Shown in pieces: positions 60,464 through 64,000 of a DNA stretch of 64,000 nucleotides; within the stretch, counting starts at the first letter, position 1, and each line of letters begins with the position of its first letter. Position numbers and translations under genes: made by a program. This DNA comes from a virus (taxonomy: Duplodnaviria; Caudoviricetes), in the IMG/VR virus record IMGVR_UViG_3300028738_000008. One strand, 5' to 3'. The notes beneath the pieces were generated by a model. The model ran no database searches and had not been told where the DNA came from. It saw only the letters and a list, made by a program, of their open reading frames with translations.

Positions 60464-60502
60464 ATTAATTTGAAGAATTTAAACTTTTTTATAAAAAATC
60501 AC

Positions 60503-60542
60503 TATTTATACTTGCAGATGTAATTTATTTGAATTACTTTTG
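60503..60542 (+). promoter_or_regulatory. composite promoter of tRNA operon 3
   Basis: TATTTATA, CTTG, N20, TACTTTTG. Confidence 0.8.
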
Positions 60543-60571
60543 CACCAGTTAAAAACAATTAAAAAATAGAA

Positions 60572-60649
60572 ATGATGAATGCAACACTTAAATACGGAAA
60601 GACTACTAAATCTTATAAAAAATATAAGATGAAGAAGGACTGTGTGTAA
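60572..60649 (+). CDS. leader peptide 3, MMNATLKYGKTTKSYKKYKMKKDCV
   Basis: 25-aa ORF with 8 Lys and 3 Tyr between promoter and terminator. Confidence 0.8.
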   Translation: MMNATLKYGKTTKSYKKYKMKKDCV

Positions 60650-60671
60650 GTGAACTATATATAATATATTC

Positions 60672-60706
60672 AAAAACCCAGTCTTAATTTAAGTCTGGGT
60701 TTTTTT
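60672..60706 (+). terminator. attenuator terminator 3 with competing antiterminator
   Basis: AAAAACCCAGTCTTAA-T-TTAAGTCTGGGTTTTTTT; AGGACTG (60636-42) can pair with CAGTCTT (60679-85). Confidence 0.85.
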
Positions 60707-60720
60707 ATGTTAAAAAATTC

Positions 60721-60792
60721 GCTCCTATAGCTTAATGGTAAAGCCTTCGACCTTTAATCGAATGACCCCTGAATCAGTATCAGGTGGGAGCA
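60721..60792 (+). tRNA. tRNA-Lys(TTT), divergent
   Basis: TTCGA-CC TTT AA-TCGAA (C33); T-loop ATCAGTA. Confidence 0.75.
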
Positions 60793-60808
60793 CAGAGTAT
60801 AGTAAGTC

Positions 60809-60879
60809 GCTTCTATAGCTCAATGGTAGAGCTTGTAACTTTTAATTATAAGACCTCGGTTCGATTCCGAGTAGGAGCA
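60809..60879 (+). tRNA. tRNA-Lys(TTT)
   Basis: CT TTT AA loop; canonical T arm. Confidence 0.85.
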
Positions 60880-60889
60880 CAAAATTATT

Positions 60890-60962
60890 GCCTTCGTAGC
60901 TTAATCGGGAAAGCTGTACACTCTTAATGTAAGGAGCGTGAGTTCGATCCTCACCGAGGGCA
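60890..60962 (+). tRNA. tRNA-Lys(CTT)
   Basis: CT CTT AA loop. Confidence 0.85.
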
Positions 60963-60969
60963 CAAATAT

Positions 60970-61051
60970 GGGATGGATGGTAAGCAGGCGAAATCAGCGG
61001 ATTGTAAACCCGTCGCTACCAGCTATTTAGGTTCGAATCCTAACCGTCCCA
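60970..61051 (+). tRNA. tRNA-Tyr(GTA)
   Basis: TT GTA AA loop; long variable arm. Confidence 0.82.
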
Positions 61052-61110
61052 CGTGAGAGACCGTTATAATTTCAAAGTCCACTTGGTATCGGAAGCGTAG
61101 AAATTAATTT

Positions 61111-61194
61111 GGGGATGTATGCAAATGGTTGAAGCAAGCGGTCTGTAAAACCGTGACGTAAGAGACGATGCTGGTTCGAATCCAGCCAGCCCCA
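61111..61194 (+). tRNA. tRNA-Tyr(GTA)
   Basis: GCGGT-CT GTA AA-ACCGT; long variable arm. Confidence 0.87.
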
Positions 61195-61256
61195 CTTGGT
61201 AGACTGTTATAATTTCATAGAACCCATTAAGTGTGGTATGCGTGGAAATTAAAAAT

Positions 61257-61337
61257 GGCGGCAGACGGGTAATGGAAATCCTAGGGGCATGCAATCCTGA
61301 GTCACAGACTATGTTGGTTCGAATCCAACCGTCGCCA
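61257..61337 (+). tRNA. atypical tRNA-like gene of unresolved identity
   Basis: Acceptor GGCGGCA/CGTCGCC and T arm GTTGG TTCGAAT CCAAC; anticodon region GGGGCATGCAATCCT is non-canonical. Confidence 0.5.
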
Positions 61338-61361
61338 CAATGAATTAAAAATTAATTAGAT

Positions 61362-61601
61362 ATGGAAACATTAGTAGAAATCATCAAAGGAAATCGTGCC
61401 GTTATGTCGCACGTATGCAATGCTAAAGCTTATTTTATCATTGAAACAATGAATAACAAGTATCAACTTGAAATGGACAGCACTGATGGTGATTGGAAGA
61501 CAACACACATGCAGACTGAATACGCTGCTATCACATTAATGCGATGGATACGCCGAGGTATTGACGAAAAGGACGGAACATTTATATCACTATATGAATA
61601 A
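61362..61601 (+). CDS. hypothetical protein at the end of tRNA operon 3
   Basis: 79 aa ORF followed by a terminator. Confidence 0.7.
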   Translation: METLVEIIKGNRAVMSHVCNAKAYFIIETMNNKYQLEMDSTDGDWKTTHMQTEYAAITLMRWIRRGIDEKDGTFISLYE

Positions 61602-61623
61602 GTTACAATCAGCTTGGAAATAA

Positions 61624-61658
61624 GAATGGCGATTGAAGAAATTTAGTCGCCATTTTTT
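61624..61658 (+). terminator. intrinsic terminator
   Basis: AATGGCGATT...AGTCGCCATT followed by a T run. Confidence 0.75.
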
Positions 61659-61697
61659 GTAACCTTTTTGGTTTCTTAACGTATAAGTATTAAAATT

Positions 61698-61769
61698 GGC
61701 TCGTTAGTTCAGCGGTTAGGGCGTCTGACTCTAAATCAGAAGGCATGGTTTCGAATACCATACGAGCCG
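61698..61769 (+). tRNA. amber suppressor tRNA (anticodon CTA)
   Basis: TCTGA-CT CTA AA-TCAGA; perfect acceptor stem GGCTCGT/ACGAGCC; G73. Confidence 0.88.
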
Positions 61770-61783
61770 CAAATAATTATAAT

Positions 61784-62080
61784 ATGAGAAAAATAACTGT
61801 TGAAAATGTGATGGCTGATGATCCTATGAAGGTACTCCAGCAATGGCGTAGCGTTAATGATAAGATCACCAGATTCATAAACGTGGCAAATCCAAGGGTT
61901 TATATGTTCATATTTGGCGAATCAGAAGGCATGCGACTATGGGAACATTTCGTAAACAATTGCGACAGACATGATTTCCAGAAATTTATGACATATTTAA
62001 CATCAGAGCAATACAATGACCTGATGATCAATTTATATTATAATGACGGCATGTATTCATTGGTGCATTATAACGATTAA
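61784..62080 (+). CDS. hypothetical protein
   Basis: Start corrected to MRKITVENV; the listed start lies inside the suppressor tRNA. Confidence 0.7.
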   Translation: MRKITVENVMADDPMKVLQQWRSVNDKITRFINVANPRVYMFIFGESEGMRLWEHFVNNCDRHDFQKFMTYLTSEQYNDLMINLYYNDGMYSLVHYND

Positions 62081-62090
62081 TAAAAAAAGA

Positions 62091-62122
62091 CTTGCATAAT
62101 TGAATTATTTAGTTTATTTTTG
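62091..62122 (+). promoter_or_regulatory. Bacteroidota sigma-type promoter for the Pth2-like gene
   Basis: CTTG N20 TATTTTTG, 35 nt before ATG 62158. Confidence 0.7.
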
Positions 62123-62157
62123 CAGTCTATTAGTATTTAATATTAAAAAGTAAGATT

Positions 62158-62487
62158 ATGACGTAGGTTAAATTAGTAACAGTAACAAGGAAAGACCTCA
62201 AAGCAGGTTATCAATTAGTACAGTCAGCACACGGCTTAGCTGAGTTTGCACATGTATATCCAACACATTTCAATGATTGGATGCGAGATTCAAAGTATCT
62301 CGTTTCATTGTCAGTCGATAATGAAGAAAACCTCAAAGAATTATTTAGTGAATTAACCAGTAATGGCGCAATCATTGTGGCATTTAACGAACCTGATATA
62401 AATGATCAGCTGACATCGATATGCTTTTATGGTACGCCAGAGATTAGGAAATTGACTGAACATTTAGATTTAGCATTAAAAAATTAA
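62158..62487 (+). CDS. peptidyl-tRNA hydrolase type 2-like protein with in-frame TAG at codon 3
   Basis: ATG ACG TAG GTT AAA...; MT*VKLVTVTRKDLKAGYQLVQSAHGLAEF...YLVSLSVDNEE...FNEPDINDQLTSICF resembles Pth2 K...V.R.DL....AQ.AHA; frame continuous with ORF 62281..62487. Confidence 0.82.
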
Positions 62488-62491
62488 CGTT

Positions 62492-62521
62492 ATGAGAAAG
62501 ATATAGATACGTCCTCCATAA
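62492..62521 (+). other. micro-ORF MRKI*IRPP* with an internal TAG
   Basis: ATG AGA AAG ATA TAG ATA CGT CCT CCA TAA, 4 nt after the Pth2-like stop. Confidence 0.5.
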
Positions 62522-62635
62522 CGTCATAGGAAACTATGAATTTGCAATTCGCAAATTGCAAATCACATGCATGAATCATTTAGAATGACGACTGTATTAA
62601 TTATAAATGAATAAATTTAAATAAAAAAACACATC

Positions 62636-63091
62636 ATGGAAGCAGTAGCAAATAGTTCAAAAATAGTATCAAAGGATACACAGGCATTAGTAAACGGTAT
62701 TTCAGAAGTTATCGCCGTAATCAATAGCAAAATCAAAACAACTGACTGGAAGCAGTCATCGTCATTAAGTGTTTACAACAATCCAAAGTTGTTCTCATTG
62801 GTAGCTGATTTAGGCACATGCGACAGAAAAAGATTGAAGAGAATTCTAAACAGATGCATGACTAACACAAGTCTTAGGAACATCAATTCAGTTATACATT
62901 TCTTATCAAAAACAGTATATAACGATCTAATTCCTACGGCTTATGTTCGTTTATCAGCCACAGAAACAGCTATACAGTTAGCTAGAAAAAAATACGTGGA
63001 ATCTCGTAAGGCAACAGAAGCTTTACAGGCTAAATACAAGGTAGTTAAAGGGGATTACTACAAAATGAAAACAGCATTAGACTTAAAATAA
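62636..63091 (+). CDS. hypothetical basic protein
   Basis: 151 aa ORF with an A-rich start context. Confidence 0.72.
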   Translation: MEAVANSSKIVSKDTQALVNGISEVIAVINSKIKTTDWKQSSSLSVYNNPKLFSLVADLGTCDRKRLKRILNRCMTNTSLRNINSVIHFLSKTVYNDLIPTAYVRLSATETAIQLARKKYVESRKATEALQAKYKVVKGDYYKMKTALDLK

Positions 63092-63244
63092 TATCGAAAT
63101 TATTTTAAAAAATCGTTGCCGAATCGAAAAAGAACTGGTATATTTGCAGAATGTATCGGTTCTTTTTTTATGTTTGAAATTATGATAATTTAACATCAAA
63201 AAAACGTATTCGGTTCTATTTATAAAAGCAAAAATTAATTATAT

Positions 63245-64000
63245 ATGACACAAGAAAATGATTTAAGTCCTATTTCGCCAGACCTCATAAAGAAGGCGTC
63301 ACTAGAATATTTCGGCGGAGATTCATTAGCAGCCGAAGTTTGGATGAACAAGTATTGTTTGAAAGACGACAATAGCTTTTACGAACTAACTCCAGACGAT
63401 ATGCATCGGAGAATCTCAGGAGAGATCGCAAGAATTGAAAACAACTATCCAAATCCAGTATCCGAGGAAGAAATCTTCCAATCCCTATCACATTTTAAAA
63501 GAATTGTTCCGCAAGGAGGCCCAATGAGTGGCATTGGCAATAACCTTCAAATCGTATCATTAAGTAATTGCTTTGTGATTGGCGATAAAGGTGTTTCAGA
63601 TTCATATGGTGGTATCTTGAAAATTGATCAGGAGCAAATTCAATTAATGAAACGACGTGGTGGAGTTGGTCACGATCTATCACACATTAGACCATCAGGA
63701 TCACCAGTAAAAAACAGCGCATTAACCTCAACAGGTATTGTGCCATTCATGAAACGTTATAGCAACTCAACAAAAGAGGTTGCACAAGATGGTAGACGTG
63801 GTGCTTTAATGCTTTCAATAGCCGTAAAACATCCAGACTCGGAAGCTTTCATCGACGCAAAATTGGAGAAAGGCGAAATATCTGGCGCAAACATTTCTGT
63901 TAAACTTGACGACGAGTTTATGAACAGCCGTTATCTTCCCAACGGAGAATTCGTTCAACAATATCCTATTAACAGTGAAAACCCATCAGTAACCAAAACT
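63245..64000 (+). CDS. nrdJ: class II (adenosylcobalamin-dependent) ribonucleotide reductase, 3'-truncated
   Basis: YFGGDSLAAEVWMNKY, LSNCFV, MKRRGGVGHDLSHIRP, VAQDGRRGALM, HPD..FI..K. Confidence 0.9.
   Translation, partial: MTQENDLSPISPDLIKKASLEYFGGDSLAAEVWMNKYCLKDDNSFYELTPDDMHRRISGEIARIENNYPNPVSEEEIFQSLSHFKRIVPQGGPMSGIGNNLQIVSLSNCFVIGDKGVSDSYGGILKIDQEQIQLMKRRGGVGHDLSHIRPSGSPVKNSALTSTGIVPFMKRYSNSTKEVAQDGRRGALMLSIAVKHPDSEAFIDAKLEKGEISGANISVKLDDEFMNSRYLPNGEFVQQYPINSENPSVTKT

What the first reader, a model, noticed from the sequence alone, without database searches (positions are those of the whole stretch)
62492..62595. Second amber-containing micro-ORF ending in R-P-P-stop, followed by a structured RNA
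ATG AGA AAG ATA TAG ATA CGT CCT CCA TAA starts 4 nt after the Pth2-like stop. Read-through gives MRKIxIRPP. Pro-Pro-stop and R-x-P-P motifs are established ribosome stalling or drop-off contexts, which would generate the substrate of the adjacent hydrolase. Immediately after lie TCATAG-GAAA-CTATGA (GNRA hairpin), a perfect 10-bp hairpin ATTTGCAATT-CGCA-AATTGCAAAT, and an alternative CGTCAT/ATGACG pairing. Two early TAGs within 350 nt next to the suppressor suggests design. It may be a translation-coupled switch for gene 62636.
Basis: partly seen in the sequence, partly recalled or inferred. Interest (0 to 1): 0.75.

Follow-up and report, generated by a model that had tools for sequence, protein, structure and literature searches.

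The report
Stop-codon-gated leader peptide switch
The ten-codon mini-gene is real and belongs to a widespread, apparently undescribed class of phage leader peptides that can be read to a ribosome-pausing Arg-Pro-Pro-stop end only if the phage's own suppressor tRNA reads through an early UAG. This gives these puzzling tRNAs a concrete regulatory job.

Summary
The micro-ORF (62492-62521, MRKI-UAG-IRPP-UAA) and the three hairpins after it are present as described.

The micro-ORF is not a chance product. In 29 of 37 independently sampled upstream regions of homologues of gene 62636, an ATG, 1-5 codons, TAG, 1-8 codons, [R/K]-x-P(-P) and a stop lie 48-155 nt before the gene. With five more loci found by eye the count is 34 of 43. 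Shuffled controls give 0.013 loci. Arg, Lys and Pro codons vary freely, so selection acts on the peptide.

The gate codon matches the phage's suppressor tRNA. TAG goes with a CUA tRNA, which lies next door in most loci. The two TAA-gated leaders sit in phages with a UUA tRNA and a TAA-gated Pth2.

In 31 of 40 relatives the leader's last codon, its stop and the next ~12 nt pair with the downstream start codon. A ribosome paused at the terminal stop would free that start; one at the gate would not.

This window's lineage differs. That helix is reduced to 5 bp and is replaced by three local hairpins that are 94% conserved. The input half of the switch is therefore clear here, but the output is unresolved.

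The scan has noted this class before on other DNA. I found no paper describing it. The "substrate generator for Pth2" idea is not supported.

The parts
61698..61770 (+). Phage tRNA with anticodon CUA (amber suppressor), the presumed reader of the gate codon
   Evidence: ARAGORN; Rfam tRNA 63.6 bits. A CUA tRNA lies within 1.5 kb of the module in about 33 of 45 related loci.
62158..62487 (+). Pth2-like gene with in-frame TAG at codon 3 (62164-62166). Its stop lies 4 nt before the leader ATG.
   Evidence: Pfam PTH2, E 5e-5. The early TAG is kept in relatives. It is TAA in the two phages whose leaders are TAA-gated.
62492..62521 (+). Stop-gated leader micro-ORF M-R-K-I-UAG-I-R-P-P-UAA. Gate TAG 62504-06; Arg-Pro-Pro 62510-18; terminal TAA 62519-21.
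   Evidence: It is 29/30 nt identical in a relative whose flanking genes are 73-77% identical, and the one change is CGT to CGC. The same architecture occurs in 34 of 43 upstream regions against 0.013 in shuffles.
62487..62524 (+). Hairpin 1. It pairs the leader's start region with its Pro-Pro-stop end and is specific to this lineage.
   Evidence: -9.2 kcal/mol. Leader-start accessibility of 0.29-0.44 is among the lowest of 34 loci.
62524..62539 (+). Hairpin 2, 6 bp with GAAA loop. The 5' arm plus loop resembles the start region of gene 62636. The 3' arm can pair with that start (CUAUGA with UCAUGG).
   Evidence: one compensatory A-U to G-C change in the relative; alternative pairing when a ribosome sits on the terminal stop.
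62540..62563 (+). Hairpin 3, a perfect 10-bp stem with a 4-nt loop
   Evidence: Kept in five sequences with one U-A to C-G compensatory change and one G-U. The loop is inverted in one relative.
62636..63091 (+). Downstream gene (151 aa, begins ATG GAA GCA). It belongs to a phage protein family of unknown function and is the presumed target of the leader.
   Evidence: 91 clusters at 50% identity. No Pfam or PHROG hit. AlphaFold model pLDDT 95, all-helical, with no fold match.

Best explanation
The micro-ORF at 62492-62521 is a translated regulatory leader that reports whether UAG is being read through.

Proposed sequence of events:
1. A ribosome starts at the ATG. In this lineage it most likely arrives by reinitiation from the Pth2-like gene, whose stop is 4 nt upstream, because hairpin 1 hides the leader's start.
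2. Without the phage CUA tRNA the ribosome terminates at codon 5 (UAG) and leaves.
3. With the tRNA it reads on through Ile-Arg-Pro-Pro and pauses at the UAA, because Pro-Pro (with Arg/Lys two residues before the last Pro) is a poor termination context.
4. In most relatives the paused ribosome sits on a helix formed by the leader's end and the start codon of the next gene. It melts that helix and turns the gene on.

In this window's lineage that helix has shrunk to UCCAU:AUGGA, and three conserved local hairpins take its place. How the pause changes expression of gene 62636 is therefore not settled. It may turn the gene on by another route, turn it off through the freed 3' arm of hairpin 2, or mainly control the leader itself.

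Shown in silico: conservation of the peptide design, the match between gate codon and tRNA, and the anti-start helix in relatives. Inferred: translation, pausing and the regulatory output.
For: 1. The leader architecture recurs. Directly after or near Pth2-like genes in 12 of 34 loci. Upstream of family genes that lie away from Pth2. In 34 of 43 non-identical upstream regions, or 29 of 37 if the six loci whose gene start I located by eye are left out. That is 29 of 37 clusters at 80% identity, against a mean of 0.013 (max 1) in 300 dinucleotide shuffles, 0 on the reverse strand and 0 with TGA as gate.
2. Selection is on the peptide. Arg/Lys are written with 8 different codons and Pro with all 4. 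A purine follows the gate in 39 of 40 leaders, and the terminal stop differs from the gate in 39 of 40.
3. The gate matches the tRNA. 38 TAG gates go with CUA tRNAs nearby. The two TAA-gated leaders (L051, L058) sit in phages whose Pth2 gene is also TAA-gated and which carry a UUA-anticodon tRNA.
4. An anti-start helix exists. The duplex between leader end and gene start has a median of -12.5 kcal/mol against -4.0 for shuffles, with 34 of 40 at p<=0.05. It spans from about -3 to +15 around the terminal stop and includes the whole AUG in 26 of 31 strong cases.
5. Modelled start accessibility rises from 0.43 to 0.64 with a ribosome on the terminal stop and stays at 0.43 with one at the gate (Wilcoxon p about 2e-6).
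6. In this lineage the leader and hairpin block is 94-97% identical to a relative whose neighbouring genes are 73-77% identical, with third codon positions at 56-60%.
7. Literature. PP-stop and DP-stop give the strongest termination stalling in E. coli (PMC7246954, citing Hayes 2002). R-A/G-P-P motifs arrest ribosomes (PMC10951233, PMC12992588).
Against: - No expression or ribosome data exist for this phage.
- The window's motif is R-P-P-stop, not the tested RAPP/RGPP register, and pausing strength in the unknown host is a guess.
- In the window lineage the leader-end to start duplex is only -5.6 kcal/mol (p 0.1-0.28).
- The start of gene 62636 is predicted to be mostly open without any ribosome (0.68), and slightly less open with a stalled one (0.49). 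The canonical ON mechanism therefore does not transfer.
- The leader's ATG and TAA lie in the arms of an inverted repeat, so within this lineage alone nucleotide conservation cannot separate peptide from structure.
- One related lineage (L011/L024/L088) has the gene directly after Pth2 with no leader, and L059 also lacks one.
- The ribosome footprint (-14 to +13) and long-range folding energies are model assumptions.
Confidence: 0.72

Rival explanations
1. In this lineage the switch is inverted or rewired. Hairpin 1 keeps the former anti-start sequence busy, so gene 62636 is open by default. A ribosome paused at Arg-Pro-Pro-stop covers the 5' arm of hairpin 2, which frees CUAUGA to pair with UCAUGG at the start of gene 62636 and lowers its translation.
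For: The constrained minimum-energy fold shows exactly this pairing. Accessibility falls from 0.68 to 0.49 in the window and from 0.69 to 0.54 in the relative. The compensatory change in hairpin 2 keeps both pairings possible. Hairpins 1-3 are under strong constraint.
Against: The alternative helices are only 5-6 bp and close a loop of about 100 nt, so they are energetically marginal. In the third lineage member no change is predicted (0.61 to 0.61). The opposite logic holds in 31 of 40 relatives.
Confidence: 0.2
2. The micro-ORF is incidental. The conserved block is a structured RNA or DNA element, such as a processing or stability signal, a terminator, or palindromic protein-binding sites. 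The ATG...TAA frame is a by-product of the inverted repeat.
For: ATG and TAA lie in the two arms of hairpin 1. The fold z-score is -3.3. There is covariation in hairpins 2 and 3. Loop inversion of hairpin 3 is a DNA-palindrome signature.
Against: Relatives with no hairpin 1 and unrelated nucleotide sequence keep the same gated [R/K]-x-P-stop peptide. No T-run follows any hairpin and no terminator was called in 62488-62635. There is no Rfam match. The distant relative L014 has the micro-ORF but no significant structure (z +0.8).
Confidence: 0.06
3. The mini-gene is a lambda bar-like minigene, or a drop-off site, that produces peptidyl-tRNA as substrate for, or as a test of, the adjacent Pth2-like hydrolase.
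For: It lies 4 nt after the Pth2-like gene here and in L018 and L057. Only four sense codons precede the gate, and the last is ATA as in bar minigenes.
Against: The leader follows the downstream gene, not Pth2. It is separated from Pth2 by other genes in L013, L036, L040, L044 and L051. The codon before the gate is not conserved (ACA, TTA, TCA, ACC, CAC, AAG, AAA). The anti-start helix points to control of the next gene.
Confidence: 0.05

Closest known systems
RAPP/RGPP-type ribosome arrest peptides (ApdA, ApdP, ApcA; SecM with RAG-P) that control a downstream gene
   Same: A short upstream ORF ending in Arg-x-Pro(-Pro). In most relatives the pause site lies on a helix that hides the next gene's initiation region, so pausing activates that gene. 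Some relatives carry true RAP/RGP cores (IIRAPT, IIRGPT, IREPP).
   Different: The known peptides sense protein export or insertion and need longer nascent chains. [quoted passage not shown] The window's motif R-P-P-stop is not the tested RAPP register (PMC10951233, PMC7897499, PMC12992588).
Termination stalling at C-terminal Pro-Pro (Hayes, Bose and Sauer 2002) and TnaC (release-factor inhibition at a Pro-stop end)
   Same: The nascent chain ends in Pro before a stop. Slow release holds the ribosome on the leader's stop codon and changes expression downstream.
   Different: TnaC needs free tryptophan and acts on Rho-dependent transcription termination. Here no ligand is apparent, and the condition is set earlier by the gate codon (PMC7246954, PMC8450073).
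Synthetic unnatural-amino-acid switches with a UAG placed in a leader peptide (Liu et al. 2011, reviewed in PMC6412442)
   Same: Downstream expression requires translation of a leader beyond an inserted UAG by a suppressor tRNA.
   Different: Those are engineered from the trp and tna leaders and act on transcription. This is a natural phage element with its own tRNA, and in relatives it acts on a start-codon helix.
Stop-codon recoding in phages with suppressor tRNAs (code 15; Borges et al., bioRxiv 10.1101/2021.08.26.457843; PMC9523058)
   Same: A phage-encoded CUA tRNA and TAG read as sense in phage genes.
   Different: This 64-kb window uses the standard code. No long gene has an internal TAG and some end in TAG. 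Only two very early TAGs, in Pth2 and in the leader, need the tRNA.
Amber- or ochre-gated arrest leaders noted earlier in this scan on other genomes (e1-5379223, e1-5319433, e1-5319524, e1-5378946, e1-5318541 and others)
   Same: The same design: early gate stop, R-x-P-P type end, helix over the next gene's initiation site, and a suppressor tRNA in the module.
   Different: Those are unverified notes on other DNA. This copy lacks the strong masking helix, has no Shine-Dalgarno logic, and adds three lineage-specific hairpins.

Membership tests
Stop-gated [R/K]-x-P-stop leaders of phage suppressor-tRNA modules (class defined here from 40 loci) | In-frame stop within the first 2-6 codons that matches the anticodon of a phage suppressor tRNA | tested here: met
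   TAG at codon 5 (62504-06); CUA tRNA at 61698-61770. Across relatives, TAG goes with CUA and TAA with UUA.
Stop-gated [R/K]-x-P-stop leaders of phage suppressor-tRNA modules (class defined here from 40 loci) | Peptide ends [R/K]-x-P or [R/K]-P-P, followed by a stop of another kind than the gate | tested here: met
   I-R-P-P then TAA. 37 of 38 TAG-gated leaders end in TAA.
Stop-gated [R/K]-x-P-stop leaders of phage suppressor-tRNA modules (class defined here from 40 loci) | Lies 48-155 nt upstream of, and on the same strand as, a small gene beginning ATG GAA | tested here: met
   114 nt before ATG GAA GCA at 62636. The gene belongs to the 151-aa family.
Stop-gated [R/K]-x-P-stop leaders of phage suppressor-tRNA modules (class defined here from 40 loci) | Leader end plus about 12 nt pairs with the downstream start codon (anti-start helix) | tested here: not met
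   Only UCCAU:AUGGA, -5.6 kcal/mol, p 0.28, against a median of -12.5 in relatives.
RAPP-like ribosome arrest peptides | Core R-A/G-P in the P site with Pro (or Gly) tRNA in the A site | tested here: not met
   The window has I-R-P-P-stop. Arg is two residues before the last Pro only if the stop codon is in the A site. Relatives L068, L084 and L062 have RAP, RGP and REPP cores.
RAPP-like ribosome arrest peptides | Demonstrated elongation or termination arrest on ribosomes | not testable with these tools
   Needs toeprinting or peptidyl-tRNA detection.
Lambda bar-type minigenes | Two- to three-codon ORF whose last sense codon (AUA) drives peptidyl-tRNA drop-off | tested here: not met
   Four sense codons precede the gate. 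ATA is present here, but the position is not conserved in relatives.
Intrinsic (Rho-independent) terminator | G+C-rich stem-loop followed by a T run | tested here: not met
   No terminator-like site between 62488 and 62635. Hairpin 3 is followed by CACATGCATG.
Any Rfam family | Covariance-model match | tested here: not met
   No match in 62488-62635 even at E<=10.

The most novel reading that the evidence does not exclude
The CUA tRNA, the amber-gated Pth2-like gene, the amber-gated leader and the unknown 151-aa protein form one circuit. In it a standard-code giant phage measures its own stop-codon suppression and adjusts a new translation factor accordingly; the 151-aa family would act on termination, on the suppressor tRNA or on its charging. 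The leader would then be a natural, minimal (9-residue) read-through sensor, and in this lineage it has been rewired into a multi-hairpin switch with possibly inverted output.
Probability: 0.25. Interest if true: 0.9.

Novelty: new variant of a known kind. Interest (0 to 1): 0.8.

Why it matters
Many large phages that use the standard code carry amber-suppressor tRNAs with no known client. The XacN1 authors, for example, read through all amber stops and found no target (PMC5852040).

A conserved leader that can be completed only by read-through, placed before a conserved gene next to that tRNA, gives the tRNA a defined regulatory target. It turns "what are these tRNAs for" into a testable question.

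It would also be the natural counterpart of engineered UAG-in-leader switches (PMC6412442). At 7-14 residues it would be among the shortest pausing peptides known. It also points to an uncharacterised protein family (91 clusters, confident new helical model) as part of the suppression module.

Tried and rejected
- Rfam scan of 60500-64000 at E<=10: only tRNAs, nothing in the spacer.
- Promoter and terminator scan: no terminator-like site in the spacer.
- DNA search of cultured and deposited phages: no match.
- The 151-aa family in that collection: only uncultured huge-phage records, so there is no cultured model.
- Whole genome: not held.
- RNA evidence: no RNA holder listed. Contigs of four peat DNA runs were identical to the window over the parts they cover, and several end inside the hairpin region, so they gave no variants.
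- Function of the 151-aa protein: no Pfam, PHROG, PDB, AlphaFold-cluster or Atlas lead. The best structural rows are generic long helices.
- Alternative micro-ORF 62536-62574 (MNLQFANCKSHA), behind an AGGA in the loop of hairpin 2: its length and end are not kept in the relative, so I rejected it as the conserved unit.
- CGTCAT/ATGACG pairing: not kept in the relative.
- In one search I mis-registered hairpin 2 by one column, so only the hairpin 3 rows of that call are valid.
- The second family behind the same leader (about 105 aa, L018/L053/L029/L031/L033) is not detected by the 151-aa family profile.
- I ran no complex prediction.

Full report
**What is there**

The window is AT-rich phage DNA (34% G+C) from peat metagenomes, with 21 tRNA genes. 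None of its long genes has an internal TAG and several end in TAG, so it uses the standard code.

It nevertheless carries one CUA-anticodon tRNA (61698-61770). Downstream lies a Pth2-like gene (62158-62487; Pfam PTH2, E 5e-5) whose third codon is TAG.

Four nucleotides after its TAA stop begins the micro-ORF: ATG AGA AAG ATA TAG ATA CGT CCT CCA TAA (62492-62521). Three hairpins follow:
- Hairpin 1 (62487-62524) pairs the micro-ORF's start region with its Pro-Pro-stop end.
- Hairpin 2 (62524-62539) has a GAAA loop.
- Hairpin 3 (62540-62563) is a perfect 10-bp stem.

Their energies are -9.2, -5.4 and -7.5 kcal/mol, and the region's fold z-score is -3.3. There is no Rfam match and no terminator-like site. 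Gene 62636-63091 (151 aa) starts 114 nt after the micro-ORF's stop.

**Close relatives**

Two diverged relatives keep the order tRNA-CUA, small ORF, Pth2 with early TAG, micro-ORF, hairpins, 151-aa gene, ribonucleotide reductase. They are a 148-kb IMG/VR contig (the same phage as a 328-kb contig) and two short JGI contigs plus one short Logan contig.

Against the first relative, identities are as follows:

| Region | Identity |
|---|---|
| Leader | 29/30 nt |
| Hairpin block | 77/82 nt |
| Pth2 gene | 77% |
| 151-aa gene | 73% |
| Rest of the spacer | 70% |
| Third codon positions | 56-60% |

The few changes are informative:
- CGT to CGC, which is synonymous.
- A compensatory A-U to G-C in hairpin 2.
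- A-U to G-U in hairpin 3, which is allowed only on the + strand RNA.
- In the second relative, an inversion of the loop of hairpin 3.

Within this lineage alone, peptide and structure cannot be told apart, because the ATG and TAA are part of the inverted repeat.

**The micro-ORF is a conserved peptide design**

I tested the idea independently.

A 462-kb uncultured phage whose Pth2 is only 39% identical has, after Pth2, a micro-ORF MK-TAG-IKITIRGPTYLF and then a homologue of the 151-aa gene. It has no significant RNA structure.

Thirty-eight Pth2 loci from IMG/VR showed micro-ORFs such as MKNT-x-VDIRPP, MKHL-x-MTTRPP, MTH-x-IRPP, MKET-x-IHIRPP, MK-x-IIGNIREPP, MTH-x-IRSP and MK-x-TCKPP.

Where the 151-aa family gene lies away from Pth2, the micro-ORF lies in front of that gene and not after Pth2 (MS-x-SRPP, MS-x-IRSP, MS-x-VKPP, MT-x-NKPP).

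The 151-aa protein has 91 clusters of relatives. A profile-based scan gave 38 more loci, nearly all with such a leader 87-150 nt upstream.

Counts:

| Set | Result |
|---|---|
| Non-identical 200-nt upstream regions with a TAG-gated ORF ending [R/K]-x-P or [R/K](x)PP | 34 of 43 |
| Same, without the six loci whose gene start I located by eye | 29 of 37 |
| Clusters at 80% identity with such a leader | 29 of 37 |
| 300 dinucleotide shuffles | mean 0.013, max 1 |
| Reverse strand | 0 |
| TGA as gate | 0 |

Most of the remaining regions have variants (IIRAPT, IIRGPT, INGP, a TAA-gated RGSPSP). Two loci have none.

Arg/Lys are encoded by eight codons and Pro by four. A purine follows the gate in 39 of 40 leaders.

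**The gate matches the tRNA**

A CUA tRNA lies within 1.5 kb in about 33 of 45 loci, usually directly after the regulated gene.

The two leaders gated by TAA (L051, L058; terminal stop TAG) belong to phages whose Pth2 gene also opens with an early TAA. Both phages carry a tRNA with anticodon UUA.

**Output in relatives**

Right after the leader's stop many loci have GTTTCCATAA or a similar string. This is the reverse complement of the downstream start TTATGGAAAC, which explains why the family proteins begin Met-Glu-Thr.

Measured features of this helix:
- The duplex between the leader end (two codons, the stop and 14 nt) and the gene start (-16 to +10) has a median of -12.5 kcal/mol against -4.0 for shuffles. 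34 of 40 loci reach p<=0.05.
- The helix runs from about -3 to +15 around the terminal stop and contains the whole AUG in 26 of 31 strong cases.
- With a ribosome footprint placed on the terminal stop, mean start accessibility rises from 0.43 to 0.64. With the footprint on the gate codon it stays at 0.43.

This is the architecture of arrest-peptide switches such as SecM and ApdA (PMC7897499, PMC10951233), with stop-codon read-through as the new input.

Pro-Pro before a stop is among the strongest termination-stalling contexts in E. coli and is depleted at bacterial C-termini (PMC7246954). RAPP, RGPP and RSPP-like motifs impede translation (PMC12992588).

In phages with Shine-Dalgarno sites the leader has a strong AAAGGAGG, whereas the regulated gene has none.

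**What differs in this window**

The window lineage is the clear outlier.
- The leader end can pair with the start of gene 62636 only through UCCAU:AUGGA (-5.6 kcal/mol, p 0.28). That sequence instead pairs with the leader's own start in hairpin 1.
- The leader start is among the least accessible of all loci (0.29-0.44) and lies 4 nt after the Pth2 stop. Leader translation therefore probably depends on ribosomes arriving from Pth2. This is an inference.
- The start of gene 62636 is predicted to be mostly open without ribosomes (0.68) and somewhat less open with a ribosome on the terminal stop (0.49). The freed 3' arm of hairpin 2 (CUAUGA) can then pair with UCAUGG at the start.
- These helices are short, so I treat the output in this copy as unresolved.
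- Hairpin 3 is older than the lineage. It is also present in L053 and L056, with a U-A to C-G compensatory change, and lies inside their anti-start loop.

**What the leader controls**

The 151-aa family has no Pfam or PHROG match. It has a confident all-helical model (pLDDT 95) and no convincing fold neighbour.

In five loci the same kind of leader, and the same ATGGAAAC start, precede a different family of about 105 aa. L053 and L056 share a leader and spacer more than 80% identical, yet have different downstream genes. The leader therefore behaves as a portable cassette.

**Literature and earlier notes**

Five full-text searches found no description of a natural stop-gated leader in phages. 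The nearest items are engineered UAG-in-leader switches (PMC6412442) and the unexplained suppressor tRNAs of standard-code jumbo phages (PMC5852040).

This scan has noted the same class on other genomes. Those notes served as leads only.

**Verdict**

The micro-ORF is very likely a functional, read-through-gated pausing leader. The substrate-generator idea is not supported. The mechanism by which this lineage's hairpins pass on the signal remains open.

Noticed in passing
window 62090-62125: A 36-nt block upstream of the Pth2-like gene is invariant in all three lineage members. It reads like a Bacteroidota-type promoter (TTGC ... TAnnTTTG followed by CAG). A similar TATATTTGCAG lies before the ribonucleotide reductase gene near 63138-63148.
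   Followed up: partly
L007:792-795 compared with window 62550-62553: The 4-nt loop of hairpin 3 is exactly inverted (CGCA to TGCG) in one relative while both arms are unchanged. This is a small palindrome-mediated inversion.
   Followed up: partly
window 62536-62626: The spacer holds five ATGs and a chain of tiny ORFs joined by ATGA overlaps (62536-74, 62571-88, 62585-614, 62609-26), ending 9 nt before gene 62636. ATGAAT occurs three times. A different but similar chain exists in the relative. This could be chance in AT-rich DNA or a reinitiation relay.
   Followed up: no
L018:1943-2266, L053:2023-2355, L029, L031, L033: A second small family (about 105 aa, METIEK...NQRKT...GER...YAAYG) sits behind the same kind of gated leader and the same ATGGAAAC start. 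It is often followed directly by the CUA tRNA or by a strong terminator. The 151-aa family profile does not detect it.
   Followed up: partly
window 62636-63091: The 151-aa protein family (91 clusters at 50% identity) gives a very confident all-helical AlphaFold model with no match in PDB or AlphaFold clusters apart from one uncharacterised family member. It may be a new fold linked to suppressor-tRNA modules.
   Followed up: partly
window 61698-61770 compared with L002:2501-2575: The CUA tRNA keeps its position but is only 66% identical between the two relatives, which is less conserved than the leader block beside it.
   Followed up: no
L011 / L024 / L088 (LR756504-like phage) and L059: These loci have the 151-aa family gene without any gated leader. 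In the first it follows the amber-gated Pth2 gene directly. They are natural controls for what the leader adds.
   Followed up: no
L013:2090-2100 (LR756501.1): This 735-kb phage's Pth2-like gene has a second in-frame TAG well inside the gene, in addition to the one at codon 3. This suggests wider TAG read-through in that phage.
   Followed up: no
window 62517-62526 and 62609-62624: Contigs from three independent peat runs end at these places, on either side of the hairpin block. This is probably assembly breakage at palindromes, but it could hide population variation.
   Followed up: no
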